Source: Terriglobia bacterium
GTDB lineage: Bacteria; Acidobacteriota; Terriglobia; 20CM-2-55-15
Assembly: GCA_965218585.1 (NCBI GenBank)
Contig: CBDCLE010000024.1
Span: forward strand, 32,001-96,000
DNA: 64,000 bases
Direction: 5' to 3'
Positions 15,711 to 31,803 of the stretch are shown here, piece after piece. The notes under the pieces are model-generated. The model was not told the origin of the DNA and made no database searches. It saw nothing but the letters and a program-made list of their open reading frames with translations. The first letter of the stretch is position 1. Each line of letters starts with the position of its first letter. The translations under genes and the position numbers were made by a program.

Positions 15711-17174
15711 CTACTATGTTACAAACGGTCTATTTTATGTTAGCATCCGGTCATGAGCGCCAAATCGAAGGCGCCAGGCACTCAGGAAAAACGTTTTGCG
15801 GCCTATTTGGAACGCCTGGCGTCGGCCGCAGGACACGCCGATCGTCATGAACCGTTGAAGTCGTACTGCACCGGGTTGTTGCTGCCGATCAAACGTAAGA
15901 GTGTGGAGCCGATGGCTGCACGATTGGCTCCGGATAATGTACGCCGAATGCACCAGTCGCTACATCATCTGGTCGCGGATGCGCCCTGGGACGATGCGGC
16001 TCTGTTGGCAGAAGTTCGACAGTACGCGCTGGGGGCGATGGAAGCCAACGGTCCGATTGAAGCCTGGATTGTCGACGACACCGGATTCGTGAAAAAGGGG
16101 ACCCACTCGGTGGGTGTGGCCCGGCAATACTGTGGACAGGTCGGCAAACCTGAGAACTGCCGGGTGGCGGTGAGCCTGTCGGTGGCGACAGCGAAATCCA
16201 GCTTGCCGGTGGCATGGCGACTCTACCTCCCCGAGACCTGGGCGAAGGATCCGGAACGTCGAAGCAAAGCCGCTATTCCCGAAGACGTTCGATTTCAAAC
16301 TAAACCTCAAATTGCTTTGGAACAAATCCGGCAGGCCGTCGATGACGGCATTGCTCCGGCACCGGTTCTGGGCGATACGGCCTACGGCAACAACTACAAG
16401 TTCCGGCACGGCATCACCGAACTCGGACTTAGCTACGTCCTAGGGGTGCAAGGCACCACGACCGTGTGGAAACCGGGCCAGGGTCCCTTGCCGCCGAAAT
16501 CCTTGACCGGCCGCGGACGGACACCGACCCGCATGCAGCGCAACAAGAAACATCAACCGGTTTCGGTCAAGCAACTGGCCCTCTCGTTGTCTCCCCAGCG
16601 TTGGAAGAACGTCTCCTGGCGCGAAGGCACCTCCGAGACCCTGCGTTCCCGTTTCGCCGCAGTTCGCATTCGTCCCGCTCATCTGGATCACGAGCGCCAC
16701 TCGCCGCATCCGAAAGAGTGGTTGTTGGTCGAGTGGCCCAAGACCGCATCCGAACCGATCCGGTACTGGCTCTCCACTCTTGGGGCCCATACCTCGCTTT
16801 CCGATCTGGCCGGTCAGGCCAAACAGCGCTGGATCATCGAACGCGACTATCAGGAACTCAAGCAGGAACTCGGTCTGGGACACTACGAAGGTCGCGGCTG
16901 GCGTGGATTTCACCATCATGGCACCTTATGTATTGCCTCTTATGGGTTCCTGGTCGCCGAGCGGAGCCGTTTTTCCCCCTCTGCATTTGTCGAGCATGTT
17001 GGACTATCCGTCCCCAAACTCCCCAAACACTTCAAACCCCGCGGAACCCCGGATCCGGCCCGAACGACATAACCCCTGCTCGATTGCCACGCTTCGCATT
17101 CGCATCGCCCGCTTCCTGATTCAGCAGCTTCCTCGTTGTCCGTTCTGTGGACCGCTTCGTTTATAACACAGTAG
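15711..17174 (+). mobile_element. IS701-family insertion sequence
   Basis: Inverted ends CTACTATGTTACAAACG (15711) / CGTTTATAACACAGTAG (17158-17174), 15/17 match, enclosing a transposase. Confidence 0.88.
15753..17072 (+). CDS. IS701-family DDE transposase
   Basis: RKSVEPMA, IVDDTGFVKKG.HSVGVARQYCG, RWIIERDYQELKQELGLGHYEGRGWRGFHHH. Confidence 0.93.
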   Translation: MSAKSKAPGTQEKRFAAYLERLASAAGHADRHEPLKSYCTGLLLPIKRKSVEPMAARLAPDNVRRMHQSLHHLVADAPWDDAALLAEVRQYALGAMEANGPIEAWIVDDTGFVKKGTHSVGVARQYCGQVGKPENCRVAVSLSVATAKSSLPVAWRLYLPETWAKDPERRSKAAIPEDVRFQTKPQIALEQIRQAVDDGIAPAPVLGDTAYGNNYKFRHGITELGLSYVLGVQGTTTVWKPGQGPLPPKSLTGRGRTPTRMQRNKKHQPVSVKQLALSLSPQRWKNVSWREGTSETLRSRFAAVRIRPAHLDHERHSPHPKEWLLVEWPKTASEPIRYWLSTLGAHTSLSDLAGQAKQRWIIERDYQELKQELGLGHYEGRGWRGFHHHGTLCIASYGFLVAERSRFSPSAFVEHVGLSVPKLPKHFKPRGTPDPARTT

Positions 17175-17217
17175 TAGTAGATGGCTCACTGGAATCGTCA
17201 CGCTTCTCTTTTTCTTT

Positions 17218-17700
17218 TTGGTGCAGCCGGCGACCTTGTACCCGATAGCTGCAGAAGGACAGAACGGTGAACCATCAGCTATTGATTTCCAAGCAGCAGA
17301 CTTAGATGGAGGTTCGTTCGACGGCCTCGGCCTGAAGGGGAATATTGTCCTGCTGGATTTCTGGGCGGTGTGGTGCAGACCCTGCCTCGATGCCTTCCCC
17401 AAACTCTACGAACTTAAGTCAGATCTGGCGGACGAAGATTTCCAAATCGTGAGCATCGCGCCCTATTCCGGAACGGCTGGTGACGTAAGGCAATTCCTCC
17501 AAGAATACCCGACCAACTACATCGCAGTCGTTGGAGACGAAGATCTCATCTATCGCTACGGCGTTATTGGTTATCCGACGTATTTCCTCCTCGATCCCCT
17601 TGGTGACATCTACCAAAAGTATGTTGGGGATCTTCCGGGTCTGACGGACCGGATCAAATCGGATGTTGAAGGACTCAGGGAGAAGTTCGGAATGCGCTGA
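17218..17700 (+). CDS. TlpA/ResA-family thiol-disulfide oxidoreductase (native 5' end probably removed by IS701)
   Basis: LKGNIVLLDFWAVWCRPC and YGVIGYPTYFLLD (cis-Pro loop); in-frame hydrophobic leader RWLTGIVTLLFFFLV extends back to the IS end without an ATG. Confidence 0.88.
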   Translation: MVQPATLYPIAAEGQNGEPSAIDFQAADLDGGSFDGLGLKGNIVLLDFWAVWCRPCLDAFPKLYELKSDLADEDFQIVSIAPYSGTAGDVRQFLQEYPTNYIAVVGDEDLIYRYGVIGYPTYFLLDPLGDIYQKYVGDLPGLTDRIKSDVEGLREKFGMR

Positions 17701-17746: not shown

Positions 17747-18607
17747 ATGCAAAGAAAATTTCTCGCCATCGCTTCGTTGGCTGTGGTTCTGGGATGGGGC
17801 ATTGTGAAGTCAGCCCCCGCCCAGGAGATCTCACCCGAAGCTCAGCAGGTCGTGGATTACCTGCTGGAAGATTGGCAGAAGCAGTTTCGGTCAACAAGTA
17901 TCGCACTAGCGATGAACAATCTCGGGATGGAACCCGACGACTCGCTTCGATTGGAGGTCGGCGAGTACTTTCGCGCCAACGTCAATCGGGCCCGGAATCT
18001 CCAGTTTTGGGGTGCGAACAATTACATCCTGAGTAATGAAGAAAAGCGGGCTGCTAAGTACCTGATGGGAATTGAGAATACCGAAGGGCGGATGCCCGAG
18101 CTCGCAGAGCTATCCCAAGTGTTGGGAATCCCTGCCGAAAATCTTGCTTCGCGATTGCGATTCATGGCCGATGCCGGTTTCCTGAAGCAGGATCCTGTAC
18201 AGGAACTCGGATTCTCACTTGCAGAAGGATTTGAACGTTGGGGTGGCCCACTCCAACATAACTTCCACACGTTACATGTCGAAGGCGAACGGCCCTTCGA
18301 TGTTTGGTGAGCGGTCGACTTCCTGCTGTTGGTCAACAGCGATGATTACAAAGGCAAGCATTTCACCCTCGAAGATTCCTGTGCTCACGGCCACTTGCCA
18401 ATCAGTGTAGAAATAGACAGTGCCACAATCACCGGCATGAATCCGGACTCTGTCTGGGTTCAGCAGGGTGGAGGCTGAGCGGTCGACAACCTCTTCTGGT
18501 CAGAAGAGCACATGAACGAATGGTTAGACGAGCACCCGGAATACCGGGAGTTGAACCAGTCTCCGATAGGAGAGTTTCTGGAGAATCTGAAGTCCCGAAG
18601 TCGTTAG
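17747..18607 (+). CDS. Exported MerB (organomercurial lyase)-like selenoprotein with two Sec residues (U188, U244), 286 aa
   Basis: RBS AAGGAG/AAAGGA + ATG 17747; signal peptide MQRKFLAIASLAVVLGWGIVKSAPA; wHTH-like segment; HTLHVEGERPFDVW-TGA-AVDFLL...LEDSCAHGHLPISVEI...VWVQQGGG-TGA-AVDNLFWSEEHMNEWLDEHP; TAG at 18605-18607, then a terminator. Confidence 0.85.
18311..18340 (+). promoter_or_regulatory. Putative bacterial SECIS element 1
   Basis: After TGA 18308-18310: hairpin GCTGTT-GGTC-AACAGC (18325-18340), with the loop starting 21 nt after the TGA. Confidence 0.8.
18479..18508 (+). promoter_or_regulatory. Putative bacterial SECIS element 2
   Basis: After TGA 18476-18478: hairpin CTCTTCT-GGTC-AGAAGAG (18491-18508), with the loop starting 20 nt after the TGA. 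Confidence 0.8.
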
Positions 18608-18632
18608 ACCAGTCACAACAAGTCTCGTTTCG

Positions 18633-18661
18633 AAAGGGCGGCCACCGAGGCCGCCTTTTTT
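18633..18661 (+). terminator. Rho-independent terminator (likely bidirectional)
   Basis: AAAG-GGCGGCC-ACCGA-GGCCGCC-TTTTTT between convergent genes. Confidence 0.85.
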
Positions 18662-18714: not shown

Positions 18715-19356
18715 TCAAAAATAACCAAGCTCGATGGCTTTCAAGACCGCGCGTGTACGGTCGCGAACACCCATCTTCGAGAGAATACTGGAAACATGGT
18801 TTTTTACTGTGCCCTCGCTCAGATGTAAAGAATCTGCAATTTCCTTGTTGCTGTAGCCGCCGGCCATCAACCGCAGCACTTCGATTTCACGTTCCGTGAT
18901 CGGGAATGGCTCGGAGAGGCTCTCGAAATCATGCTTTCGATTGGCGAGGCCCTCAAGCAATCGTTCCGTGACGGCTGGTCGAATGAGGGTGCCACCGCTA
19001 GCAATCTTTCGGATGGCGCTGGTGAGTTGTTCCAAGGACACGTCCTTCAACATGAAACCTCGCGCTCCAGCGCGAACCGCTTCCAGAACCAGATCATCGT
19101 CGTCGAAGGTTGTCAGGACCAATGTCGGAGGAAGCGTCCCTGCTTCCCGAAGTTTCTTCAGGACTCTCAGGCCATTTGCTTTGGGCAAGCGCACATCGAG
19201 GAGAACGACATCTGGGTTGCTTTCAGGAATAACGTTCATAGCCTCGGCCCCGTCTTTGGCTTCGGCCGTGACTTCGATGTCGTCGACCAACTCAAGCAGG
19301 CCATGAATGCCTTGCCGAACCAGAGTCTGATCTTCGACCAGGCAGACGCGAATCAC
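18715..19356 (-). CDS. NarL/LuxR-family response regulator
   Basis: LVEDQ, DVVLLDVRLP, LTTFDDD, TEREIEVL...NKEIA...GTVKNHVSSIL; GTG start overlaps the kinase TGA. Confidence 0.93.
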   Translation of the reverse strand: MIRVCLVEDQTLVRQGIHGLLELVDDIEVTAEAKDGAEAMNVIPESNPDVVLLDVRLPKANGLRVLKKLREAGTLPPTLVLTTFDDDDLVLEAVRAGARGFMLKDVSLEQLTSAIRKIASGGTLIRPAVTERLLEGLANRKHDFESLSEPFPITEREIEVLRLMAGGYSNKEIADSLHLSEGTVKNHVSSILSKMGVRDRTRAVLKAIELGYF

Positions 19357-20501
19357 GGGCTGCCTTCCTGGAGCGGCATCCATGCGTGGAGCCTAAAACC
19401 TTCAGATAGCTTAGAGTCAATCTGCAAATTTCCTCCGAACTGTTCCAGACGTTCCTGCATTCCTTTCAACCCGTTTCCTATTCGCACGGTCCGTGCACCC
19501 CGGCTGTCGTCACGAGCTTGCACCTCAACTCCGGAAGGCGACTTCCTGAACTCAATCCAGAGATTCGCGGCGTCGGCATGCCGGATCGTGTTGGTAATGA
19601 TTTCCCGGGCGCACCGAAGCAAGGCCTGCGCTCGCAGCGGGTCATCAATGCTCAAATCGTCAGGCAGTATCATGTGAATCCTTGGGTTAGGTACGTCCTC
19701 GATGAGTCTTGTTAACGACCGTTCAAGGTTGATTTGGTCGGTATCACGTACCGAGCTCACCACGCCTCTGACGTCATCAAGCAGCGTCTTCGTGAGGTCC
19801 CGTGCATTCACCGCACGTTCTCTGGTTTCTGCGTCGCTCGTGTGAGCCAGGACTTCAAGGTTCAGGCTCAGAGCAGTCAGGTTGTGACCCAGGACATCGT
19901 GCAACTCTCTGGATATGCGTTGGCGTTCCGCAATCCGGCTGCTTTCCGATAAGAGTTCTTGAGTCGCCTTGAGTTCGGCATTGGCCAGGGCCAATTCTGA
20001 TCGAGCCTTGGATTCACTCGCTGCGAAACTTGCACTAAACAACGCAAGGGCTTCGAATCCTGCGTAAGTAGCGAGGAGGGTCAACGCTACCCCCATCGGA
20101 AAGGACAGCGAAATCAGCCAACCCATCAACAACGACTGAAATAACAGCCACGACAACGCCCACGGCACGGGTAACATCCACCCCAGCTGGAGAGAGACAA
20201 GTACAAGTAGAGCTCCTTCAAAGCCCGAGCAGACAAGGCGGATCATCACCAACGCCAACGTGGTTTGAATGCCAACCATCGCGACACCGAGGGAATCGGG
20301 TTGGACCGAAGCAGGTTGCCAAGGTGTTGAAATGAAGGTAATTCCGAAAGCCAGGAAGAAGCCCAACCAGAGGTAATACGTGGGGTTCGTCAAATAGTCG
20401 GGGTTGAGCCGCAAGACCCTCAACAGCGGCAGGCCAGCCAGTATCCAAGTTAGGATTCCGGCAGAACGTAGAAATTGCCTGGCTTTGTGAGACAGGTCCA
20501 T
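19353..20501 (-). CDS. Membrane sensor histidine kinase (HisKA_3, DesK/LiaS-like)
   Basis: About 5 N-terminal TM helices, ERQRISRELHDVLGH, EIITNTIRHA, GNGLKGMQER. Confidence 0.92.
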   Translation of the reverse strand: MDLSHKARQFLRSAGILTWILAGLPLLRVLRLNPDYLTNPTYYLWLGFFLAFGITFISTPWQPASVQPDSLGVAMVGIQTTLALVMIRLVCSGFEGALLVLVSLQLGWMLPVPWALSWLLFQSLLMGWLISLSFPMGVALTLLATYAGFEALALFSASFAASESKARSELALANAELKATQELLSESSRIAERQRISRELHDVLGHNLTALSLNLEVLAHTSDAETRERAVNARDLTKTLLDDVRGVVSSVRDTDQINLERSLTRLIEDVPNPRIHMILPDDLSIDDPLRAQALLRCAREIITNTIRHADAANLWIEFRKSPSGVEVQARDDSRGARTVRIGNGLKGMQERLEQFGGNLQIDSKLSEGFRLHAWMPLQEGSP

Positions 20502-20511
20502 GATCCCAACG

Positions 20512-20691
20512 TTAGACCGTGATCATGTCAAAACGACAGTGCCGAAAGTCATGGTAAGCGGAAGCTGCTGAATTTACGAGTGGGGTCATGCCCACGAGAT
20601 GGAACGCGCTGAGAAGACCGGCCAGGATCAGATTGGCCGACCTTGTCTCTACCACCGTGTCTTCGAGCCATTCGAACACTGAGGCGAACAT
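20512..20691 (-). pseudogene. Possible remnant of a small membrane protein (DUF6644-like)
   Basis: MFASVFEWLEDT...LLSAFHLVGM resembles an N-terminus of that type and then degenerates. Confidence 0.3.
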
Positions 20692-20767
20692 GAGATCTAT
20701 TCCCTGTGGGTGCGGCCTATGACCGCACAAGAACGGAGGCTACAGAACCCCCTGCAGGGCTTCGCGA

Positions 20768-21199
20768 TCAATGATGGCCCGGTGCATTGAATGCTCCATG
20801 GACAACCGCGATCTGCCAGTTGTCGTCGACTCTCTTAAAGACCGTCGTGTTCAAGCCCAGAATATCCGCCTCACCACCAGTGAGCGTGTACGCATACGTC
20901 GCCCATGCTGCATCGGCCGTGTTGCCAGTTCGGACATTCGATACGCTGAGGGTCCGGGCCGGTGTCTGGTTGAACAGGATCCCGATGAACCCGAGGACCG
21001 TGCTCTTGCCGTTCATGATGTGGCCGTCCTCGTCCAGCCATACGACGTCATCAGCAAGATGCTGTTCGAAATACGCCATGTCGTGGGTGTTGTATGCGGT
21101 GACGCCTGCCTGAACAAGTTCCGCTCCCGGCTCCTGAGCAAGTGCGGGTGCCGCGCCAAAAGCCACGATCAGGAAAGAGATGCAGAGTAATTTCTTCAC
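20768..21199 (-). CDS. Secreted NTF2/SnoaL-like (DUF4440) protein
   Basis: GTG start after AAGGGAG, signal peptide, AYNTHD...LADDVVW...TTVFKRVDDNWQIAVVH. Confidence 0.8.
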   Translation of the reverse strand: MKKLLCISFLIVAFGAAPALAQEPGAELVQAGVTAYNTHDMAYFEQHLADDVVWLDEDGHIMNGKSTVLGFIGILFNQTPARTLSVSNVRTGNTADAAWATYAYTLTGGEADILGLNTTVFKRVDDNWQIAVVHGAFNAPGHH

Positions 21200-21246
21200 G
21201 TTAGTTCTCCCTTGAGGTGTTTGATCAATTAATACTTGAAAACTTT

Positions 21247-22542
21247 TCACGACAAATCGATACCGTCTTCCATCAATTCTTCATCAGAGGCCTCCCGGGC
21301 CAGAGTGCCTGGAGGGTTCTGATACCAATCCGGATCTTCGTAACTCGTAATTCCGTCCCGAACCTTCAGCACAGTGAACATGCCGCCCATGTCGACGGGA
21401 TCATGTTTCCCAGGTGTGCTCTTCATCGAGATGCTGTTGTCAGGAACAGGCATACCCATTTCAGCCATGCCGGCCATACCGGTCTGCCCCATCGTCATGT
21501 ATCCAGGCAGGAGCGAGCGGATGCGGTTGTCCAGGCCGCCGGGATCGAGTCCGATGACGTTCGGCCCTTCATGCCCCATCTGGTTCATGATGTGGTGGGT
21601 GAAGTGGCAGTGCATGGCCCAGTCCCCGGGTGCGTCGGCGACGAACTCGATGTCTCGCGTCGATCCTACAGGCACGAGCACTGTCGTTTCCGGCCACTGA
21701 GCCGTATCCGCAATGCGGCCCCCGTCGGTTCCCGTGATGTTGAAGGAATAGCCGTGCAAATGGATCGGATGGTTGTCCATAGCGCTCAGGTTCCCGAATC
21801 GGATACGGACGCTTTGACCCGTACCCACAACGAGAGGATCAGTTGCCGGAAAGGCCTTGCTGTTCAAGGTCAGGACGTTAAAGTCCGTCATCTCGCGAGG
21901 GTCGGGCCGACGGGCACCAATGGGGACGAACCACTCGCTCAGCATGATGGCGAAGTCGCGGTCTACGACGTATTGCGGTTCCTGTTCGTGGATAACGAGC
22001 ATGCCCATCAGTCCCATGCCCATCTGCGTCATCTCGTCGACGTGAGGGTGGTACATGAAGGTGCCGGGATTCAACATCGTGAATTCATACCTGAACGTCT
22101 CTCCTGGGCGGATATACGGCTGGTTCAGACCGCCTACGCCGTCCATGCCGTTAGGAAGAATAAGCCCGTGCCAGTGGACGGTCGTGGGTTCCGGCAGGCG
22201 GTTCGTAACGTAGATACGAACCCGGTCACCCTCTACAGCTTCGATCGTCGGTCCGGGAGTTCGGCCGTTGTAGCCCCAACACGGACCCGTGAGTCCGGGA
22301 GCGAATTCATGTTCCACTGGCTCGGCCATGAGGTGGAAGACCTTCACACCATTTTCTACGGTCCGGAAAGGAAGCGAGGTGCCGTTGGGCGTAACCACCG
22401 ATCGATAAGGGTTTCCCGTGCCCTCGGGTGAAGCTGTCGCTCCCGTCGTTTGCGATTGTGCTTCGGCAATGCTGGATGGGCCGATCAGAAGTGCGCCTCC
22501 TGCCAAGACCGAACCTGTCATGAATTTTCTTCGCGAAACCAT
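21247..22542 (-). CDS. Tat-exported multicopper oxidase
   Basis: SRRKF Tat motif; HWHG, MYHPH, HPIHLHG, HCHFTHH..NQM copper ligands; Met-rich tail. Confidence 0.92.
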   Translation of the reverse strand: MVSRRKFMTGSVLAGGALLIGPSSIAEAQSQTTGATASPEGTGNPYRSVVTPNGTSLPFRTVENGVKVFHLMAEPVEHEFAPGLTGPCWGYNGRTPGPTIEAVEGDRVRIYVTNRLPEPTTVHWHGLILPNGMDGVGGLNQPYIRPGETFRYEFTMLNPGTFMYHPHVDEMTQMGMGLMGMLVIHEQEPQYVVDRDFAIMLSEWFVPIGARRPDPREMTDFNVLTLNSKAFPATDPLVVGTGQSVRIRFGNLSAMDNHPIHLHGYSFNITGTDGGRIADTAQWPETTVLVPVGSTRDIEFVADAPGDWAMHCHFTHHIMNQMGHEGPNVIGLDPGGLDNRIRSLLPGYMTMGQTGMAGMAEMGMPVPDNSISMKSTPGKHDPVDMGGMFTVLKVRDGITSYEDPDWYQNPPGTLAREASDEELMEDGIDLS

Positions 22543-22554
22543 CTCAAGTTCTCC

Positions 22555-23949
22555 TTATTCCCTGGCGTCAGACATGCTGAAGACATCACGCATCGTCACC
22601 AACCGGCCTGCCAGAATCTGATCCAATGTCGAGCGCGCTCGCCAATAGCTCCGCAGCGCTGTCACATACTCCTGGCCGGTGCGGATTTGTTCCCTGCGGG
22701 CCAGGAGCAACTGAAACACTCCCGTCTGCATTGCGTTAAACTGCCTCTGGGTTTCGCCCACAATCTGTTCCCAGATCGGGAGCAGAACATCCCGGTAGTG
22801 CTCGGCTCGTCGAGTGGCGATCAACAACTCGCTTCGCGCCCGGCGGACCCCCGCCCGGATACGGACAGCACGGGCCCGATACTGCTGCTCCAATTGCCGC
22901 ATTTCAGCACGAGCTGCTTCGATGCGCCCCTGCCCCCGATCAAAAAGCGGCACCTCGAGGGAGATGATCGGGCCGGTCTGCCGAACACTTTCTTCTCTCC
23001 CAACCTGAGCCCCGGCCCGCAGCGCAGGCAGAAGGCCTTCTGCGCGTGCGAGGTTGGCCAGACGCGCCGACGCCGTGTAACGGTATTCGAGACCGAGAAG
23101 GTCCAGGCTTTCCTCAATGGCGCGAGCCTCCAGAACGTCAATGCCAGGCAGATCTCCTTCGGCTTCCGGTCCCCCTAGCCGTCCCGCTGACTGCCAGTCC
23201 GTTTCGGTTCCCGACAGTCCCATCCATGCATTGAGTTCTTCACGACGGCCGAGTGCGGCCGCCTCCGCCAGAGCCGTCTCACTCCGAGCCTGCTCGTAGA
23301 AGGCACGTTCGTTGGCCAGTTCCAGAGCTGTGATATTTCCCGCGTCATAGAGGCGTTGGGCTGCCTCGTATGATGCCGCGGCGACTTCCAGAACGGTCTG
23401 GTCCAGTTCCAGCAACTGTTCAGCCCCCTGGTAGTCGTAAAAGGCGTTGCGTACCTCGTAGGCGAACTCGAGTGCGGCCCCTCCGGTTTCGATACGAACC
23501 GCATCCAGCCCAGCTGCGGCGACGCCCCGGCGCAGTGGCAGGAACAGTAGGTCTGTCAGGTTGGCCGTAGCCGCGAAGCCGAAGTCCGAACGGCGGTTAT
23601 CGGCAAACGAACCGATATCGCCGTCGAACTCGATGTTGGGCGGCAAGCTTGCATCAATGAGTTGGGCTCGGGCGATTCCCAGCTCTTCAAAAAGTGCCTG
23701 CAGGTCGGCGTTCTTCAGGAGAGCGATATCGACAGCCTCGTCAGGTCCAATGGGTTGGGCAAGCAGCTCAGCTACTCTTTGGTCGAGGGCAGGATCGCCT
23801 GAGAGCTGCCGCCACTCGGCATCAAGCCCCGCCCGTTGTTCGAGTAGAACTTGCACGGATTCAAACCCAGCGTTTCGCGGAGCGCAGGAGGTGAGGCTCC
23901 CGATTAAAAGAAACAGGCATGCGAATGGTTTTGGTCTTAGCATCCTCAT
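22555..23949 (-). CDS. TolC-family outer membrane lipoprotein (copper-resistance associated)
   Basis: Lipobox LTSC, AVDIALLKN, EVPLFDRGQG, OEP helical repeats; adjacent to the oxidase. Confidence 0.88.
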   Translation of the reverse strand: MRMLRPKPFACLFLLIGSLTSCAPRNAGFESVQVLLEQRAGLDAEWRQLSGDPALDQRVAELLAQPIGPDEAVDIALLKNADLQALFEELGIARAQLIDASLPPNIEFDGDIGSFADNRRSDFGFAATANLTDLLFLPLRRGVAAAGLDAVRIETGGAALEFAYEVRNAFYDYQGAEQLLELDQTVLEVAAASYEAAQRLYDAGNITALELANERAFYEQARSETALAEAAALGRREELNAWMGLSGTETDWQSAGRLGGPEAEGDLPGIDVLEARAIEESLDLLGLEYRYTASARLANLARAEGLLPALRAGAQVGREESVRQTGPIISLEVPLFDRGQGRIEAARAEMRQLEQQYRARAVRIRAGVRRARSELLIATRRAEHYRDVLLPIWEQIVGETQRQFNAMQTGVFQLLLARREQIRTGQEYVTALRSYWRARSTLDQILAGRLVTMRDVFSMSDARE

Positions 23950-23952
23950 CCC

Positions 23953-24477
23953 TCACGGCTCGGTGGGACCGGAGGCGTCTTCCCCCTCCGAGGCCACCAG
24001 ATCGATGCTGAAGATCTGAATTCGTTCTTCCGGAAGTCGCTCGATTCTGAAGACGATTTCGTTTCCTACTTCGAGAGATTCTCTCCTGACTTCTGCAGCA
24101 ACGGGGAATGTCATCGTCATCGCCATCATGAAGCCGGGAATCATCCCGTGTTGGATCTGTAATTGGTCTGCTGCTATGGCCCGAATCACTCCCTGTCCCA
24201 CGAAGGGCGCATCACGCGTACCGTCAGGTGTGCGATTGTCGCTTTGTCCGATTTCACGACCTTCCTCTCCAGTCGTAAGAGTAAGTTCCCCAGACGGATA
24301 CAGAGGCGCATTGGGCCGGAGGATGGCCGCAGGTTCGGCCTCCACTCGCCCGGGGGGAGCATCGATTCGCGCAGGGTGGTCTGAGGCCAGCCCGAGGGTT
24401 GTGGGTACACAGCCGGAGCCGACGAGAGCGAGGATCAGTGTGCCCCCCAACAGTAGCTTGTTTGGGCTGTTCTCCAT
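23953..24477 (-). CDS. Lipoprotein with CusF-like copper-binding domain
   Basis: GQGVIRAI...IQHGMIPGFMMAMTMTFPV (His/Met Cu(I) motif); lipobox-like GSGC. Confidence 0.8.
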   Translation of the reverse strand: MENSPNKLLLGGTLILALVGSGCVPTTLGLASDHPARIDAPPGRVEAEPAAILRPNAPLYPSGELTLTTGEEGREIGQSDNRTPDGTRDAPFVGQGVIRAIAADQLQIQHGMIPGFMMAMTMTFPVAAEVRRESLEVGNEIVFRIERLPEERIQIFSIDLVASEGEDASGPTEP

Positions 24478-24511
24478 CTAAATCTCCTCTTCTGAGATCT
24501 TTCAGCGGACG

Positions 24512-24958
24512 CTAATTGCCGCTGATCACTACCGTCGGTGCCACGTCGCCCACCCATTCCGCAGTGCTTCCGTCCGCGTGAGTTTGAACGACGCTCCACA
24601 CCAGAGTGGTTGCTTCCCCAGGGTTTTCGGCAGTGAAGCTGAATTGTTCCGCTTGGCCCTGGGGAATCTCTCCGCCGCTCCACACTGCGCTTACAACGTA
24701 GCCGTCGGCATCCGTTGTCGGCTCGATCGTCCAGCCGGTTTTAGATTCGAAGTCGGAGACCGTCACGCCCATCGGAAACTCGGCTTCAATCCGGACTGTG
24801 GCACTGTCCCGTTCGGTAGGAACGCGCATCGTGTAGGTTTCACTCGCGCCGGTGGAGGATTCCGTAGGCGAAATCGTCACGTGAGCAAACCCGCTTCCTA
24901 CGACGAAGAAAATCCCTAAAGCTGCGGCAAACACCAGATAAGGTTCTTGTGTTCTCAT
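24512..24958 (-). CDS. YcnI/DUF1775 copper-binding protein
   Basis: Signal peptide then HVTI.P, RVPTER, GW, WSGG, Q..ADG...W, AP. Confidence 0.85.
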   Translation of the reverse strand: MRTQEPYLVFAAALGIFFVVGSGFAHVTISPTESSTGASETYTMRVPTERDSATVRIEAEFPMGVTVSDFESKTGWTIEPTTDADGYVVSAVWSGGEIPQGQAEQFSFTAENPGEATTLVWSVVQTHADGSTAEWVGDVAPTVVISGN

Positions 24959-25044
24959 TCGCTTCCTCTCCGCGGAGGCAGACCCGCTGGCCTCGGCGCC
25001 GTTCTGATCCGTCGTTGTTGAGCCAGGCGTCCAGCCCGGCCGTG

Positions 25045-25743
25045 TTACCGCGCCAGGAGGAACTCCCGCCGCAGTGCTTCGTAATAATTCCGATCCAGAG
25101 GTTCTTTCAACTGGAAGACAAAGCGCTTCGTTTTATCGAACGCTCTTTGGTTTTCCTCCAGAACGCGTAATTCCAATTCGAATGCATTGGACGACCAGAC
25201 GTTTGCGATATGGATGTCGCGGCGCCAGTTGCGGGCGTCTTCGGTATGATCGGTCTGGTAAACAATCCATCCGTCGCCGAAGGTCAGCGTGCCTTCACAG
25301 CCTCCAAAGACGTGGAGATGTTTGACGGCCACTTGATATTCGGGTTCGACAACCCTCGGGACCCGGTCCGTCACCGGCCGTGCAAGCTGCTGTCTGATCT
25401 GCTCAAAGGTTGCTTCTTCGAGGCCCGCTTCGCCGGGGAGAACCGTGAAGTCAAAAGAACGATCCAGACCCAGATGCAAGGCGAGGTCTTCGTAGCTTAG
25501 AACGCTGAATCGTTCCGCCGACCGGCGGTCGAAGCCCTGGACGTCCACCCAGGCCCAGTCGCGCTGATGCTCTTCTTTCTCCGTTTCGTAGCGGATACCG
25601 TTTTCAGTAATGTGGAGTTCGCCTTCGCAACTGCCCCAGGGATCGTGGTCGTGACGCACGAGAAGTGTCTGCGCCGAAACGGGGACCGCGAGGATCAGTA
25701 CCAGGAACATCAGCCACAAGTGGCGATACCAGCCTCTATGCAT
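25045..25743 (-). CDS. Secreted hypothetical protein with two similar (PH-like) halves
   Basis: Signal peptide; HDHDPWGSCEGEL and HLHVFGGCEGTL repeats; start overlaps the true cusA stop. Confidence 0.7.
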   Translation of the reverse strand: MHRGWYRHLWLMFLVLILAVPVSAQTLLVRHDHDPWGSCEGELHITENGIRYETEKEEHQRDWAWVDVQGFDRRSAERFSVLSYEDLALHLGLDRSFDFTVLPGEAGLEEATFEQIRQQLARPVTDRVPRVVEPEYQVAVKHLHVFGGCEGTLTFGDGWIVYQTDHTEDARNWRRDIHIANVWSSNAFELELRVLEENQRAFDKTKRFVFQLKEPLDRNYYEALRREFLLAR

Positions 25744-28700
25744 CTTTTAGCCTCCAGCCTTTCAATATGTAGTAGATGACCGGGTACACGCCGAGAACCA
25801 GAACCACCGAGGTCACGACGCCGCCAACCATCGGTGTGGCAATGCGTTTCATGACGTCGGATCCTGTCCCCTGGCTCCACATGATCGGCAACAGGCCCGC
25901 CATGATGACGCTGGCCGTCATGATTTTGGGACGCAACCGCGCCCTGGTAGATCGCATCCACCAGGTTCTTGCGGTGACGCATGCGTCCCGCTCGCACCGC
26001 ATCTTTGTAGGCCAGGTCCAGATAGAGGAGCATGACAACTCCGGTTTCGGCAGCCAGTCCGCCCAGTGCGATGATGCCCACCCACACGGCGATGCTCATG
26101 TTGTAGTCGAGCAGGTACAAAAGCCAGAACGCCCCGACCAACGCCAGCGGCAAAGAAAGAAAAACGACGAGCGTGTCGACGATGGATCGCGTATTCAAAA
26201 AAATGATTACGAAGATGATCAGCAGGGTCATCGGGATCACGAGCCGCAGGCGCTCGGCGGCGCGCACCATGTATTCGTACTGACCGCTCCAGGTGATGCT
26301 GTACCCGGGGGGAATCTCGACTTGCTCGGCCACGGCGTTCTGGGCCATGGCGACATAGGTGCCCACGTCTATATCATCCAGATCTACATAGACCCAGGCG
26401 TTTGGGCGCGCGTTCTCCGTCTTGATCGCGGGCGGCCCCTTCTTGATCTCCATGTCGACCAGCATCTGGAGCGGAATGTGTTGGCCGGCCGGCGTGGGAA
26501 CCAGGATCTGGCCCAGCGCCGCGATGTCGTCCCTCAACTCCCGGCTGTAGCGCAGGTTGACCGGGTATCGTTCCAACCCTTCCACGGTCGTGGTGATGTT
26601 CATTCCTCCGATGGCGGACTGGATGACGTCCTGGACATCCCCGACCGTCAGTCCGTAACGTGCGATGGCTGCCCGATCCATCTGGAAGTCCAGGTAGTTG
26701 CCGCCCAGGACCCGTTCCGAATAGGCCGAGCGAGTTCCCGGCAACTGGCCGACGACGGCTTCTATCTGTTGACCGACTTGTTCCAGGACTCCCAGGTCAG
26801 GCCCTGCGACCTTTACGCCAACCGGCGTCTTGATGCCGGTGGAGAGCATGTCGATACGATTTTTGATGGGCATCGTCCAGATATTGGTCATACCTGGAAA
26901 CTGCAGTGATTGATCCATCTCGGCGGTGAGGCGCTCCGGTGTCATGCCGGGCCGCCACTCGGCCTGTGGCTTCAACATAACGGTCGTCTCAACCATGCTG
27001 AGCGGCGCCGGATCGGTAGCCGTTTCGGCACGGCCGATCTTTCCGAAGACCGTGTCGACCTCAGGGAAAGTGCGGAGGATCTTGTCGGTCTGCTGGAGCA
27101 ACTCTCGCGCCTTCGTGACGGAGATGCCCGGCAGTGTTGTCGGCATGTACAGCAGGTCTCCTTCCCAGAGAGGTGGCATGAACTCCGATCCAAGCCGGGA
27201 GTACGGAACCCACGTGCCCACCAGAACTACGAGCGTCAGCGCCAGAACTCCCCATCGAAATCGTAATAGAAGGTGCAGGATCGGATCATAGATCCAAATC
27301 AACAGCCGGCTGAGCGGATTGCGGCGCTCGGCCGGGATGCGCCCCCGGATCCAATATCCCATCAGGACGGGCACGAGCGTGATCGCCAACAGGGAAGCCG
27401 CCGCCATCGAATAGGTCTTGGTAAACGCCAGAGGTTTGAACAGCCGCCCTTCCTGGGCTTCGAGCGTAAAGACGGGAGCGAACGATACCGTGATAACCAG
27501 GAGAGCGAAAAACAGCGTCGGCCCGACTTCCTTCGCGGCGTTGCCGATGATCTGCCAATGCGGCTTCTTCCCACGGTCGCGTTCGAGGTGTTTGTGAGCG
27601 TTCTCGATCATGATGATCGCGGCGTCCACCATTGCCCCGATCGCGATGGCTATGCCGCCCAACGACATGATGTTCGCGCTGATTCCCTGGTAGTACATCA
27701 CCGTGAACGCCATCAGAACAGCGATCGGCAGCGTGATGATGGCCACGAGCGAGGATCGGAGATGGAGCAGGAACAGGATGCAGACCAGAGCCACCGCCAG
27801 GCCCTCTTCGAGCAGTTTCTCCTGGAGCGTCTCCACGGATCTTTCGATCAGACCCGACCTGTCGTAGACCGTCTCGATCTCGACATCGCCGAGGAGCCCG
27901 GGTTTCAATTCTTCGAGTCTTGCTTTGACGCGCTCTATGACTTGGTAAGCGTTCTCGCCTGAACGGACAATGACGATGCCCCCGACAGCCTCACCCTCCC
28001 CGTTCAATTCAGCCAGGCCGCGCCGGATGTCCGGCCCGAGCTGCACGGTTGCGACATCCTTCAACAGGAGCGGCGTGCCCCTCGAATCTACCTTCAGGAC
28101 GATGTCGCGGATGTCGTTCTCATTCTGGATATAACCCAGACCCCGGATCATGAATTCGGATTCGGCCATCTCGAGGACTCGGCCGCCCACGTCATTGTTG
28201 CTGCTCTGGACAGCTGTGCGTATCGCCGAGATCGAGACGTCGTAGGCACGCAGCTTGGTCGGGTCCACCGTAATCTGGTACTGCTTGACGAAGCCGCCGA
28301 TGCTGGCGACTTCGGAAACACCTGGTACGGCTGTCAATTCGTATTTCAGGAACCAATCCTGGATGCTGCGCAGCTCGGAGAGGTCCCGCTCGCTGGAGGT
28401 CAGTGAGTACATGTACGCCCAGCCGACACCGGTGGCGTCGGGTCCTAAAGTGGGCGTGACGCCCGCTGGCAGCCGCTCCGAAACGTAGTTCAGGTATTCG
28501 AGAACGCGGCTGCGGGCCCAGTACAAGTCGGTTCCGTCCTCGAAGATCACGTAGACGAGAGAAAAACCGAAGAAGGAATAACCCCTCACGACACGGGAAA
28601 AGGGCACGGCCAGCATCTGCGTATTGATCGGATACGTCACCTGGTCTTCCACGACCTGTGGCGCCTGCCCTGGAAAATCAGTGTAGATGATGACCTGCAC

Positions 28701-28832
28701 GTCGGAAAGATCCGGGATCGCGTCCAGCGGCGTGTTACCGATAGCGTATATGCCGCCCATTACGGCGAACCCGGCAGCGAGGATCACAAGAAACCGGTTC
28801 TGAATCGACCAATCGATGATTTTTGCAAGCAT
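25736..28832 (-). pseudogene. cusA: CusA/CzcA heavy-metal RND permease with a frameshift near 25936-25940
   Basis: DAIPDLSDVQV, LGPDATGVGW, GAMVDAAIIMIEN, Met-rich Cu site region. The conserved tail RLRPKIMT...GTGSDVMKRIATPMVGG lies in another frame ending at 25736. Confidence 0.9.
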
Positions 28833-28850
28833 CTGGAACTGATTCCTCTG

Positions 28851-30359
28851 TCAGTCTCGATCGGGCATTTCCATTTCGGGCGACATCTCCGTATCCGCGT
28901 CGGGTGACATGTCCATGGCGCTCGGTGATGCTGCAGGCGGATCCTCGGCGAGCAGCTTTCTCACGGCTTCCCGCAGGTTGCTTTCCGAATCGATCAGGAA
29001 TTGAGAGGACACGACGACACGGCTGCCTTCGGATAAGCCTGTCCGTACTTCCCAGAGACCGTTCCCGTTTACGCCTAATTCGACCTCACTCACCTGAAAA
29101 GTTCCGTTGCCGAGGTCGAGTACGACTACGTCGCGCTCGCCGCTTCGGATCACCGCTTCCTCAGGCACGGCGACAACTCCCCTCGCTGATGGGACATCGA
29201 ACGTCACTTCGGCGTACATCTCGGCTCGAAGCTCCTCGCCGGGATTGGGCAGCTCGATCGAAAGCTTCAGCGTCCGTGTCTCAGGGTTGAAGAACGGGTA
29301 AACGTACCGGATGGTCCCGGAGTAACGCCGACCCGGCAAACTGGGGACCTCCACCAGGGCCGACTGGCCGACACGTAACCAGGGAATGTCGTCCTCGAAA
29401 ATTTCGGCCTCGACCCAGATCGCTGAAAGATCCACGATCTGGTAGAGGTTCATGCCGGGCCTGGCGAGCATGCCCTCCAGCGCCTGCTCCATCTTCGAGA
29501 CGACCAGACCGTCAACAGGTGAAAAGACCGTGAGCGTGCGTCGAGGTGCATCGGATTTCTCCAGTTCGTCGATCTGGTCGTTGGTGATGTCCCAGTAGCG
29601 GAGTCGTTGCCTGGAGGATTCCACGAGGGAGCGGGCGCGATCGATAATTTCTGGATAATCGCTCGCGCCTAGGCGTTCCAGATACTCCACGGCGTCCAGA
29701 TAATCTTGTTGTGCGTTCACGAGCTGCGGGCTGAAGACGTCGAACAGCCGTTGCCCCCGCTGGACGCGCTCACCGATGTAATTGACCTGGACGTTTTCAA
29801 TCCAGCCGTCGTACTTCGTGTTAATCGAGAAGATCTGGTTGTCGTCGTAAGCAAAAGTCCCGACGGTTCGAATCGTGTGGGGAATATCGGTGCGTGCGAC
29901 CTCGGTGGACCGGACTCCAATGTTCTGGACAAAGACCGGGTCGATCCGCACCAGGCCCGGTGTGTCCACCTCGTCCTCGTAGACAGGAACAAGATCCATC
30001 CCCATTGGAGATTGTCCGGGTTCGTCGGATATGAACGTCGGATCCATGGGCGCGACCCAGTAAGCGACGGTCCGTTCCGCCGCCTCGTCCTCATAAACGG
30101 GGATTAAATCCATTCCCATCGGCGACTTACCCGGTTCGTCAGATATGAAACTAGGGTCCATCGGCGCGACCCAGTATCGGATCGCCCGTTCTCGGGTCCC
30201 GGCAGCGGAGGCGTTCGTTTCGTCAGACATCGCCATTGGCGTCAATCGATCCCGGAGAGCCGAGGCCCAATTCCAATTGAGGGGATTGACCAGGACAACG
30301 CCAGCCAGTCCGATTCCGGCGAAAAAGAACATAAGACTGAAAACGACGGTTTTCTTCAT
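28851..30359 (-). CDS. cusB: CusB-type RND periplasmic adaptor with two heavy-metal-binding repeats
   Basis: YWVAPMDP.FISDEPG.SPMGMDL.PVY twice; SPQLVNAQQDY; SQFLIDSES. Confidence 0.9.
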   Translation of the reverse strand: MKKTVVFSLMFFFAGIGLAGVVLVNPLNWNWASALRDRLTPMAMSDETNASAAGTRERAIRYWVAPMDPSFISDEPGKSPMGMDLIPVYEDEAAERTVAYWVAPMDPTFISDEPGQSPMGMDLVPVYEDEVDTPGLVRIDPVFVQNIGVRSTEVARTDIPHTIRTVGTFAYDDNQIFSINTKYDGWIENVQVNYIGERVQRGQRLFDVFSPQLVNAQQDYLDAVEYLERLGASDYPEIIDRARSLVESSRQRLRYWDITNDQIDELEKSDAPRRTLTVFSPVDGLVVSKMEQALEGMLARPGMNLYQIVDLSAIWVEAEIFEDDIPWLRVGQSALVEVPSLPGRRYSGTIRYVYPFFNPETRTLKLSIELPNPGEELRAEMYAEVTFDVPSARGVVAVPEEAVIRSGERDVVVLDLGNGTFQVSEVELGVNGNGLWEVRTGLSEGSRVVVSSQFLIDSESNLREAVRKLLAEDPPAASPSAMDMSPDADTEMSPEMEMPDRD

Positions 30360-30365
30360 ATCGGG

Positions 30366-31693: not shown

Positions 31694-31803
31694 CAAAACC
31701 TCTTTGACGGCAGTTTTCGTTGCCCACGAACTCACTCTGTACGTTGAGTGCGTGAACGTAGAGATACCAAGGTGGCCGCTTCAGCGGACGTTAGGGTGAA
31801 GAA

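What the first reader, a model, noticed from the sequence alone, without database searches (positions are those of the whole stretch)
18308..18508. Twin SECIS-like modules: identical TGAGCGGTCGAC plus GGTC-loop hairpins
Seen: both in-frame TGAs start the same 12-mer (U-A-V-D). Each is followed by a perfect hairpin with a different stem but the same loop: GCTGTT-GGTC-AACAGC (loop 21 nt after the TGA) and CTCTTCT-GGTC-AGAAGAG (20 nt after). Established: the E. coli fdhF SECIS carries GGUC in its apical loop at about this distance, where SelB reads the GU. Inference: different stems with the same loop and spacing indicate selection on RNA structure and define a lineage-specific SECIS signature usable to mine other missed selenoproteins.
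Basis: partly seen in the sequence, partly recalled or inferred. Interest (0 to 1): 0.75.

Follow-up and report, generated by a model that had tools for sequence, protein, structure and literature searches.

The report
Two selenocysteine insertion hairpins, one gene
Two short RNA hairpins sit just after two in-frame stop codons of a mercury-lyase-like gene and most likely tell the ribosome to insert selenocysteine twice, revealing a widespread enzyme family that databases cut short as a 187-residue hypothetical protein.

Summary
TGAGCGGTCGAC occurs exactly twice (18308, 18476), in frame and 56 codons apart. Each copy is followed by a perfect hairpin with a GGTC loop.

The gene (17747-18607, +) encodes an exported, distant MerB-like protein. 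The two TGAs fall on the MerB catalytic cysteines (C96, C159).

In 10 of 12 related loci from several phyla both TGAs and both hairpins are kept. Synonymous sites are saturated elsewhere in the gene but frozen in the hairpins: 9 of 10 hairpin codon columns use a single codon, against 1 of 92 elsewhere (p = 4e-11). One locus carries a compensatory U-A to C-G change.

Cys/Cys homologues exist. TGA is the commonest ordinary stop in the window.

Both elements fit the published bacterial SECIS model and resemble E. coli fdhF, whose GGUC loop lies 1-2 nt closer to its UGA.

So these are two functional-looking bacterial SECIS elements. They are not a lineage-specific signature: they belong to the gene family and cross phyla. 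The 12-mer itself is a protein-level (Ala-Val-Asp) and codon-bias effect.

The family, always next to a TlpA-like thioredoxin, is absent from a 2026 catalogue of 119 selenoprotein families. Sec machinery and selenium incorporation remain untested.

The parts
17747..18607 (+). Full gene: 286-codon exported MerB-like protein with two in-frame UGA codons (Sec188, Sec244). It has an N-terminal signal peptide, a TAG stop at 18605-18607 and an AAGGAG-like ribosome-binding site upstream of the ATG.
   Evidence: Translation with TGA=U. Weak but consistent MerB matches: Pfam PF03243 E 1e-4, 22.7 bits against a cut-off of 27; NCBIfam NF009710 E 9e-7; PDB MerB2 5c17 E 3e-4, with both U positions aligned on its Cys residues. 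Foldseek's ten best PDB hits are all MerB or MerB2.
18308..18310 (+). First in-frame UGA (Sec188), equivalent to MerB Cys96. It is followed by A-V-D, with Asp191 at the position of MerB Asp99.
   Evidence: TGA present in 11 of 11 sequences (window plus L001-L010). 77 of 83 aligned database homologues end exactly at the preceding Trp. Cys occupies this position in P0011 and in wider homologues.
18325..18340 (+). SECIS hairpin 1: 6-bp stem (plus a U-G pair at 18324/18341) with a GGUC loop at 18331-18334, 20 nt after the UGA. It is encoded by L-L-V-N-S codons.
   Evidence: RNAfold. RNAalifold predicts exactly this helix on 11 sequences. 65 of 66 cells are paired. CTG TTG GTC AAC are identical in 11 of 11 sequences and AGC in 10 of 11, although Leu and Ser have six codons each.
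18476..18478 (+). Second in-frame UGA (Sec244), equivalent to MerB Cys159, again followed by A-V-D.
   Evidence: TGA present in 11 of 11 sequences. P0011 and at least nine wider homologues end at the GGG just before it. Cys occupies this position in full-length homologues such as P0087 and P0088.
18491..18508 (+). SECIS hairpin 2: 7-bp stem with a GGUC loop at 18498-18501, 19 nt after the UGA. It is encoded by L-F-W-S-E-E codons, in a different reading frame relative to the loop than hairpin 1.
   Evidence: RNAfold. RNAalifold predicts exactly this helix. 77 of 77 cells are paired, with one compensatory U-A to C-G change in L005 (TGG to CGG, TCA to TCG).
17218..17700 (+). Upstream partner gene: a TlpA/Redoxin-type thioredoxin-like protein with a WCRPC motif. 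Its 5' end appears to be missing.
   Evidence: Pfam AhpC-TSA, Thioredoxin_8 and Redoxin. The same gene type lies within one gene upstream in all 12 loci and is fused in L005/P0078. Homology to the L010 protein continues upstream of the first start codon until a stop at 17164-17166.
18632..18661 (+). Intrinsic-terminator-like hairpin (GC-rich 12-bp stem followed by a U run) about 25 nt after the TAG stop.
   Evidence: RNAfold gives -20.9 kcal/mol, z = -3.3, and 1 of 200 shuffles folds as well. The simple terminator scan did not list it.

Best explanation
The two modules are two separate bacterial selenocysteine insertion sequences (bSECIS) inside one coding region.

**Mechanism (inferred).** As the ribosome nears each UGA, the downstream hairpin presents its GGUC loop about 19-20 nt away. 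SelB-GTP-Sec-tRNA(Sec) binds that loop and delivers selenocysteine instead of allowing termination. The ribosome then melts hairpin 1, translates 55 codons and repeats the event at hairpin 2.

**Product.** The result is a 286-residue exported protein, a distant homologue of organomercurial lyase MerB. Both metal-binding catalytic cysteines (C96, C159) are replaced by selenocysteine and the catalytic Asp is kept.

**Partner.** A TlpA-like thioredoxin is always encoded next to it. This probably keeps the selenols reduced or takes the metal off them.

**Shown:** TGA conservation, nucleotide-level selection confined to the hairpins, Cys homologues at both sites, fit to the SECIS model, MerB homology, and synteny with the thioredoxin.

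**Inferred:** SelB binding, actual Se incorporation, enzyme activity and the role of the partner.

The identical 12-mer is a by-product of the conserved U-A-V-D peptide plus codon preference. It is not part of the RNA signal.
For: 1. **Both TGAs are conserved.** They are kept in frame in 10 of 12 related loci from several phyla. Of the other two, L011 has an internal deletion and L012 runs off its contig.
2. **Database homologues stop at the TGA.** 77 of 83 aligned homologues stop exactly before the first TGA, and two are read through with W at both sites.
3. **Synonymous sites are frozen only in the hairpins.** In a 9-sequence codon alignment of the whole gene there are 102 informative columns. 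A single codon is used in 9 of 10 hairpin columns against 1 of 92 elsewhere, Fisher p = 4e-11. In the 11-sequence blocks, the non-hairpin columns listed use up to 4 of 4 Gly codons and 5 of 6 Leu codons. Locus G+C ranges from 37% to 69%.
4. **Structure prediction and covariation.** RNAalifold returns exactly the two hairpins. In L005 a U-A to C-G compensatory change is accepted at the price of a Trp to Arg replacement.
5. **Different frames.** The two loops lie in different codon frames (TTG GTC against TGG TCA), so the shared GGUC is not a protein effect.
6. **Cys homologues.** Cys/Cys full-length homologues exist, as do forms with Cys at site 1 that end at GGG just before site 2.
7. **Fit to the published bSECIS model.** The model requires a 3-9 nt loop, a 4-16 bp stem, G in the first two loop positions and 16-37 nt spacing (PMC13188914 section 5, read). 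E. coli fdhF has the same GGUC loop at offset 21, against 23 and 22 here.
8. **TGA is an ordinary stop here.** It ends 25 of 43 long ORFs in the window.
9. **Terminator position.** A strong terminator follows the TAG stop, not the TGAs.
Against: - No tRNA-Sec was found in the window, and no selA, selB or selD appeared among the 44 window ORFs scanned against Pfam. The Sec trait of this genome is therefore unverified.
- Single-sequence fold energies are no better than shuffles. Hairpin 1 alone (-6.9 to -7.3 kcal/mol) and its consensus (-6.35) fall just short of the model's -7.5 kcal/mol cut-off.
- True covariation is thin. There is one compensatory pair in one sequence, and 11 of 13 pairs never vary, so most of the support is conservation rather than covariation.
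- The stems are perfect and lack the bulged U of the fdhF element (bulge seen in the fold; its importance is recalled).
- No Rfam family matches.
- The 11 sequences are related, so the Fisher test overstates independence.
Confidence: 0.88

Rival explanations
1. The hairpins are accidents of a strongly conserved peptide (LLLVNS, NLFWSEEH). The TGAs are recoded or tolerated for some other reason, and no RNA signal exists.
For: The peptides over the hairpins are invariant or nearly so. Fold energies of the single sequences are not better than shuffles. Nearly all stem pairs never vary.
Against: Protein conservation cannot fix synonymous positions. Six-fold degenerate Leu and Ser codons are identical in all sequences only inside the hairpins (9 of 10 columns against 1 of 92). 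In Cys/Cys homologues the same peptide stretches are variable, which suggests the RNA constrains the protein rather than the reverse. L005 changes an amino acid (W to R) together with a silent change that restores the pair.
Confidence: 0.03
2. The gene is a pseudogene or an assembly error, or the organism reads TGA as an ordinary amino acid (code 4 or 25), so no Sec is involved.
For: Gene callers truncate the protein at 187 residues. Two database entries translate both TGAs as W. One related locus (L011) does carry a deleted copy.
Against: Both TGAs are kept at the same codons in 10 loci, with 50-60% protein identity continuing through and beyond them. TGA ends 25 of 43 long ORFs in the window. 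The sites align with catalytic Cys, not Trp or Gly, in homologues.
Confidence: 0.02
3. The hairpins promote UGA read-through or ribosome pausing without SelB, for example insertion of Cys or Trp by a near-cognate tRNA, or regulated production of short and long isoforms.
For: Sec machinery was not seen in the window. Downstream hairpins can stimulate read-through in general (recalled, not tested here).
Against: The loop is the same tetraloop, at nearly the same distance, as in the fdhF SECIS, and it meets the SECIS model. Both sites are Cys in homologues, which is the classic Sec/Cys signature. A 187-residue product would lack the whole catalytic domain.
Confidence: 0.05

Closest known systems
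E. coli fdhF bacterial SECIS (formate dehydrogenase H)
   Same: Lies within the coding region immediately 3' of an in-frame UGA. A short hairpin carries the apical tetraloop GGUC. In the K-12 record the loop starts at offset 21 from the U of UGA, against 23 and 22 here.
   Different: The stems here are perfect, 6-7 bp, with no bulge and no conserved lower helix. The loop is 1-2 nt further from the UGA. There are two elements in one gene. The stem sequences are unrelated to fdhF.
SaoL, the MerB-like organometallic lyase selenoprotein (NCBIfam NF040728; Haft and Gwadz, bioRxiv 10.1101/2022.07.06.499078, passages read)
   Same: A MerB homologue that databases truncate at an in-frame UGA, with Sec at the position of MerB Cys159 and the Cys96/Asp99 equivalents kept.
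   Different: SaoL has one Sec in a CU dipeptide. It is described as cytosolic, about 213 residues long, found in anaerobes and part of a nine-gene SAO locus. The protein here has two Sec (GGG-U and W-U) and no CU motif. It also has a signal peptide, an extra roughly 90-residue N-terminal domain and a TlpA-like thioredoxin neighbour. It scores 12 bits against a cut-off of 140 for NF040728.
MerB / MerB2 organomercurial lyase (PF03243; PDB 3f0o, 5c17)
   Same: Detectable sequence and fold homology over the winged-helix and catalytic regions. The catalytic triad positions align as U188, D191 and U244.
   Different: It falls below the curated cut-offs of Pfam and NCBIfam. Sec replaces both Cys. 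It is exported rather than cytosolic. It has an added N-terminal domain and is not in a mer operon, although L006 has a canonical merB two genes upstream.
Bacterial selenoproteins with two or three Sec listed in the 2026 review (e.g. MbdU, MduS, TsoB; PMC13188914 Table 1, read)
   Same: More than one UGA-encoded Sec in one bacterial polypeptide.
   Different: None of the 119 listed families is MerB-like with two Sec, and none has a U-A-V-D motif. NCBIfam models of those families did not match this protein.

Membership tests
Bacterial SECIS (consensus model as summarised in PMC13188914, section 5) | Located in the ORF immediately downstream of an in-frame UGA | tested here: met
   Both hairpins lie inside the 17747-18607 frame after the TGAs at 18308 and 18476.
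Bacterial SECIS (consensus model as summarised in PMC13188914, section 5) | Apical loop of 3-9 nt on an upper stem of 4-16 bp | tested here: met
   4-nt loops on stems of 6(+1) and 7 bp.
Bacterial SECIS (consensus model as summarised in PMC13188914, section 5) | G in one of the first two loop positions, usually followed by G or U | tested here: met
   The loop is GGUC in both elements and in all 22 elements of 11 sequences.
Bacterial SECIS (consensus model as summarised in PMC13188914, section 5) | 16-37 nt between the UGA and the apical loop | tested here: met
   20 nt and 19 nt, the same in all 11 sequences.
Bacterial SECIS (consensus model as summarised in PMC13188914, section 5) | Minimum free energy of -7.5 kcal/mol or lower | tested here: inconclusive
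   The hairpins alone give -6.7 to -7.4 kcal/mol. The alifold consensus gives -6.35 and -7.62. The 60-nt contexts that include the hairpins give -10.5 and -12.6.
Selenoprotein gene (standard bioinformatic criteria) | Homologues carry Cys at the position of the UGA | tested here: met
   Site 1 is Cys in P0011 and in many wider homologues. Both sites are Cys in P0087, P0088, P0089, P0094 and others.
Selenoprotein gene (standard bioinformatic criteria) | The genome encodes selA, selB, selC (tRNA-Sec) and selD | not testable with these tools
   None found in the window.
Selenoprotein gene (standard bioinformatic criteria) | Selenium is actually incorporated, and read-through depends on SelB and the hairpin | not testable with these tools
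   Requires labelling, mass spectrometry or reporter assays.
E. coli fdhF-type SECIS | GGUC apical loop with a bulged U in the adjoining stem (the importance of the bulge is recalled) | tested here: not met
   The loop is identical, but the stems here are perfect with no bulge.
MerB (PF03243 / NF009710) | Score at or above the curated family cut-off | tested here: not met
   Pfam gives 22.7 bits against 27. NCBIfam gives 28.4 bits against 193. This is a distant homologue, not a member by these models.
MerB (PF03243 / NF009710) | Catalytic Cys96-Asp99-Cys159 triad | tested here: inconclusive
   U188 and U244 align on the two MerB2 Cys residues in the HMMER alignment, and D191 lies three residues after U188 as D99 does after C96 (the numbering of the triad is taken from the passages read). 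Both thiols are replaced by selenols. The model is low-confidence around residues 240-250, so geometry could not be checked.
MerB (PF03243 / NF009710) | MerB fold | tested here: inconclusive
   Foldseek's ten best PDB hits are all MerB or MerB2 (E 3e-6 to 9e-3, probability 0.96-1.00), but TM is only 0.19-0.31 and rmsd about 14 A. The model has mean pLDDT 79, and 46-83 in the C-terminal domain.
SaoL (NF040728) | Score at or above the cut-off, and a CU dipeptide at the second site | tested here: not met
   12 bits against 140. The motif here is GGG-U-A, with no Cys before the Sec.

The most novel reading that the evidence does not exclude
The gene and its obligatory TlpA-like thioredoxin partner form a previously undescribed, widespread, exported system. 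In it a MerB-type active site built from two selenocysteines captures or cleaves (organo)mercury or another soft-metal organometallic outside the cytoplasm. The thioredoxin then strips the metal or re-reduces the selenols.

A bolder corollary is that the second U-A-V-D plus GGUC-hairpin module was copied from the first within the gene. That would mean a Sec-insertion cassette can spread by intragenic duplication. The half-identical stems (CU..U-GGUC-A..AG) and the A-V-D peptide, which wider homologues lack at site 2, would be its footprint.
Probability: 0.3. Interest if true: 0.7.

Novelty: new member of a known kind. Interest (0 to 1): 0.5.

Why it matters
- **Annotation.** A whole protein family is systematically truncated to a 187-residue 'hypothetical protein'. 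It comprised 84 clusters in one search and occurs in at least six named lineages. Its catalytic domain, with two selenocysteines, is invisible in databases.
- **Selenoprotein biology.** It would add a MerB-like double selenoprotein to the catalogue, which currently holds only the single-Sec, cytosolic SaoL. It would also be a clean example of two SECIS elements in one bacterial ORF.
- **Method.** The near-identity of the hairpins across phyla, set against saturated synonymous sites, is a textbook-quality signal of RNA-level selection within a coding region. The same approach could flag other missed selenoprotein genes more reliably than a fixed motif.
- **Function.** A di-selenol MerB site outside the cytoplasm, paired with a dedicated thioredoxin and sitting here beside copper-resistance genes, bears on mercury-selenium antagonism and metal detoxification.

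Tried and rejected
- **Rfam.** The whole window at gathering thresholds and 18250-18620 at E up to 10 gave no family.
- **tRNA-Sec.** ARAGORN found no tRNA in the window at all.
- **Conserved lower helix.** I looked for one, or for pairing that involves the 12-mer. RNAalifold keeps only the two apical hairpins.
- **Is the 12-mer an RNA element or a gene-conversion tract?** The two copies are identical within 5 of 11 loci, against 1.6 expected under random pairing (p = 0.009). After collapsing the three close relatives (window, L009, L010) this becomes 3 against 1.1 (p = 0.07). Codon bias tracks G+C, with GTT GAT in the 37% G+C locus and GTG GAC in the 69% locus. I rejected it as a signal.
- **Motif mining.** In the window plus 12 loci the scan found only the known elements, plus two weak 5-bp hits (window 5160, L007 1733) at about the chance rate.
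- **In-frame TGA listing.** A listing of long in-frame TGA-split frames in the window gave many chance cases and no second convincing selenoprotein gene.
- **Plasmids.** tblastn found only canonical merB at 25% identity.
- **Cluster look-up.** It returned no informative names.
- **Terminator scan.** The simple scan missed the terminator that folding then showed.
- **Failed call.** One Pfam call failed on a mistyped frame and was resent without that item.

**Not done**
- No complex prediction for the thioredoxin pair was run.
- bioRxiv supplements are closed, so the family lists of the SaoL preprint were not seen.
Full report
**1. The observation**

- TGAGCGGTCGAC occurs exactly twice in 64 kb, at 18308 and 18476, both on the + strand.
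- The two TGAs are 168 nt apart, in the frame that opens at ATG 17747 and closes at TAG 18605-18607. With TGA read as U the frame gives a 286-residue protein with U188 and U244, each followed by A-V-D.
- Each TGA is followed by a perfect hairpin with a GGTC loop: GCTGTT/AACAGC (18325-18340) and CTCTTCT/AGAAGAG (18491-18508).
- The loops start 20 and 19 nt after the TGA.

On a single sequence this is not statistically striking.
- The 60-nt folds are no more stable than shuffles (z = +0.77 and -0.14).
- The bare hairpins are worth only -6.7 to -7.4 kcal/mol.
- A motif scan of the window finds three hits against 0.77 expected: these two elements and a weak 5-bp one at 5160.

**2. What the gene is**

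The protein is a distant MerB homologue.
- Pfam MerB gives E 1e-4, below the gathering score.
- NCBIfam MerB NF009710 gives E 9e-7, far below its cut-off.
- PDB MerB2 5c17 gives E 3e-4. In that alignment U188 and U244 fall on the two MerB2 cysteines.
- D191 sits three residues after U188, as Asp99 does after Cys96 in MerB. The triad numbering is taken from the passages of the SaoL preprint read.
- An AlphaFold2 model from a 40-row alignment has mean pLDDT 79. It is above 90 for residues 30-160 but 46-83 in the C-terminal domain.
- The ten best Foldseek PDB hits are all MerB or MerB2 (E from 3e-6), though with low TM of 0.19-0.31.
- tblastn against plasmids finds only canonical merB at 25% identity.

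The protein differs from canonical MerB in three ways.
- It begins with a signal peptide. Bacteroidota relatives have a lipoprotein-like Cys.
- It carries an extra conserved helical N-terminal domain, residues about 28-113, that matches no Pfam family.
- A strong terminator-like hairpin follows the TAG stop, not the TGAs (-20.9 kcal/mol, z = -3.3).

**3. Relatives**

A protein search returned 84 clusters at E up to 1e-3.
- In the alignment of 83 of them (P0078 was left out), 77 end exactly at W187, the codon before the first TGA.
- P0008 and P0069 run on with W at both TGA positions.
- P0011 has Cys at site 1 and ends at G243, just before site 2.
- Three are irregular.
- P0078 also ends at W187 and has a thioredoxin-like domain fused to its N-terminus.

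A scan of one genome per species returned 12 loci. Their record titles name Bacteroidota, Cytophagia, Caldithrix, Deferribacteres, Marinimicrobia, Blastocatellia, Vicinamibacterales and other Acidobacteriota.
- Ten of the 12 (L001-L010) have both TGAs in frame with the same flanking peptides.
- L011 has an internal deletion of roughly 70 codons that removes both sites and shifts the frame.
- L012 runs off its contig before the sites.

**4. Selection on the RNA**

Across the window plus L001-L010 (protein identity 50-60%, locus G+C 37-69%), two sets of codons are almost invariant.
- At site 1, CTG TTG GTC AAC are identical in 11 of 11 sequences and AGC in 10 of 11.
- At site 2, CTC TTC TGG TCA GAA GAG are identical in 11 of 11 sequences, except for L005.
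- In the non-hairpin columns listed for these blocks, up to 4 of 4 Gly codons and 5 of 6 Leu codons are used.

A whole-gene test used a codon alignment of 9 sequences. L009 and L010 were dropped for upstream frameshifts, and L011 and L012 for the reasons given above.
- There are 102 informative columns (amino acid kept in at least 8 sequences, degenerate codon).
- Ten of these columns use a single codon, and 9 of those lie in the two hairpins.
- That is 9 of 10 hairpin columns against 1 of 92 elsewhere, Fisher p = 4e-11. The sequences are related, so this p-value is optimistic, but the contrast with saturated neighbours is plain.

Further points on structure:
- L005 reads CTCTTCCGGTCGGAAGAG. 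This is a U-A to C-G change of the loop-closing pair, achieved by a Trp-to-Arg replacement plus a silent TCA-to-TCG change.
- RNAalifold, given TGA plus 45 nt, predicts exactly the two hairpins and nothing else.
- Pair counts are 65 of 66 and 77 of 77 cells paired, but 11 of 13 pairs never vary. The case therefore rests on conservation beyond the protein's needs, with only one genuine covariation event.
- The two loops are in different codon frames (L-V against W-S), so the shared GGUC is not dictated by a shared peptide.
- In Cys/Cys homologues the peptides over the hairpin positions vary, as expected if the RNA constrains the protein in the TGA forms.

**5. The 12-mer**

The 9 nt after the TGA vary at synonymous sites between loci, for example GCGGTCGAT, GCGATTGAC, GGTGTCGAC and GCCATCGAT.
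- The two copies are identical within a locus in 5 of 11 cases, with three different sequences that follow genome G+C.
- Against random pairing that is 5 against 1.6 (p = 0.009). It falls to 3 against 1.1 (p = 0.07) when the window, L009 and L010 are counted once.
- The 12-mer therefore reflects the conserved U-A-V-D peptide and codon preference, not an RNA element.
- The stems are not wholly different either. Aligned on the loop, three pairs are the same and three differ on both sides.

**6. Fit to known SECIS**

The review PMC13188914 (sections 5 and 7 read) gives the bacterial model: loop 3-9 nt, stem 4-16 bp, G in the first two loop positions, 16-37 nt from the UGA, and MFE of -7.5 kcal/mol or lower.
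- Both elements meet the first four features.
- The energy criterion is borderline for the bare hairpins and met in context.
- A second review repeats the 16-37 nt spacing (PMC10778597, passages).
- The E. coli K-12 fdhF record, fetched by accession, has TGA at codon 140. RNAfold places GGUC in the apical loop at offset 21, against 23 and 22 here, and the fdhF stem carries a bulge that these stems lack.
- Rfam has no matching family.

**7. Sec or something else**

- TGA is the commonest stop of long ORFs in the window, ending 25 of 43. This excludes a TGA-sense code.
- A profile of the C-terminal domain searched against 1.8 billion representatives found 89 proteins. I aligned 26 of them with the window's C-terminal domain.
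- These include full-length homologues with Cys at both sites (for example P0087, P0088, P0089, P0094, P0097).
- At least nine have Cys at site 1 and end at GGG just before site 2 (P0090, P0091, P0093, P0095, P0098, P0099, P0103, P0116, and P0096 ending GGT).
- There are also many 48-55-residue fragments that cover only the stretch between the two sites.
- This is the standard Sec/Cys signature at both positions.

What could not be checked:
- The window has no tRNA gene at all.
- No selA, selB or selD appeared among the 44 window ORFs scanned.
- The rest of the genome is out of reach.

**8. Context**

Immediately upstream lies a TlpA/Redoxin-type thioredoxin gene (17218-17700, WCRPC motif).
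- The same gene type lies directly upstream in 9 loci, one gene away in L002 and L003, and fused in L005. That is 12 of 12 loci.
- L006 also has a canonical merB two genes upstream. L007 has an HMA-domain gene nearby.
- In the window the pair sits between an IS transposase (15753-17072) and a NarL-type two-component system. Beyond that lie a multicopper oxidase and a Cus-type RND copper efflux cluster.

From this I infer, but have not shown, that the protein handles a soft metal or organometal outside the cytoplasm. On this reading the thioredoxin serves the two selenols, either reducing them or taking the metal from them much as MerA takes Hg from MerB (the latter recalled).

**9. Novelty**

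- The only MerB-like selenoprotein I found in print is SaoL: one Sec in a CU motif, cytosolic, part of the SAO locus (bioRxiv 10.1101/2022.07.06.499078, passages read). This protein scores 12 bits against the cut-off of 140 for its model.
- The 2026 review's Table 1 of 119 families lists no MerB-like double selenoprotein.
- Searches for 'MerB' with 'selenoprotein', 'alkylmercury lyase' with 'selenocysteine', 'organomercurial lyase' with 'selenoprotein', and 'double selenoprotein' turned up nothing closer.
- Database names for family members, where any exist, are 'hypothetical protein'.
- I could not see the preprint's supplements, which may list further MerB-like groups.

**10. Verdict**

The modules are, with high probability, two genuine bacterial SECIS elements of the ordinary E. 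coli-like kind. They serve two Sec codons in an uncatalogued, widespread MerB-like family.

The claims that the motif is lineage-specific, that the 12-mer is part of it, and that the stems are fully different are not supported.

Noticed in passing
window 17164-17221 and 15753-17072: The thioredoxin-like gene upstream appears to lack its true 5' end. Homology to the L010 protein, including a hydrophobic anchor-like stretch, continues upstream of the first ATG/GTG/TTG until a stop at 17164-17166. A DDE_5 IS transposase gene ends about 90 nt further upstream. An IS insertion may have truncated the gene or now drive the operon.
   Followed up: partly
window 18380-18391 (residues 212-215): Between the two Sec sites the relatives carry a conserved D-S-C-[AS]-H-C motif (10 of 10 loci). 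The window's copy reads C-A-H-G, so it lacks the second Cys.
   Followed up: no
L011 3050-3200: This Acidobacteriota locus has a copy with an internal deletion of roughly 70 codons. It runs from just after the conserved NFHTV to the WSEEH stretch. The deletion removes both TGA sites and shifts the frame, while the 3' half of hairpin 2 remains. It is either a decayed gene or an assembly artefact.
   Followed up: partly
L005 5990-7047 (P0078): In this Acidobacteriota record the thioredoxin-like domain is fused to the N-terminus of the MerB-like protein. The frame also continues about 80 codons past the usual C-terminus, up to a third TGA.
   Followed up: partly
L006 930-1700: A canonical MerB gene (PF03243, E 2e-31) lies two genes upstream of the di-Sec gene, with the thioredoxin gene between them.
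   Followed up: no
window 19353-31735 (- strand): A metal-resistance block lies next to the gene: a NarL-type response regulator and HisKA_3 kinase, a multicopper oxidase, two outer-membrane efflux proteins, a CusF-like protein, an RND pump and a CusB-like adaptor with heavy-metal-binding domains.
   Followed up: partly
window 18497-18511 and 18521-18535: The 3' half of hairpin 2 (TGGTCAGAAGAGCAC) recurs 24 nt downstream at 87% identity (TGGTTAGACGAGCAC; peptides WSEEH and WLDEH). The second copy is not conserved at the nucleotide level in other loci.
   Followed up: partly
window 18311-18313 and 18479-18481, and the same codons in L001-L010: The Ala codon right after each TGA is GCG in 19 of 21 Ala codons, across loci of 37-69% G+C. 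This is a mild synonymous bias next to the UGA that the hairpin model does not explain. It may be a context effect on UGA decoding.
   Followed up: no
window 42457-43872, 61846-62478: There are two further DDE transposase genes in the window, besides the one at 15753-17072.
   Followed up: no
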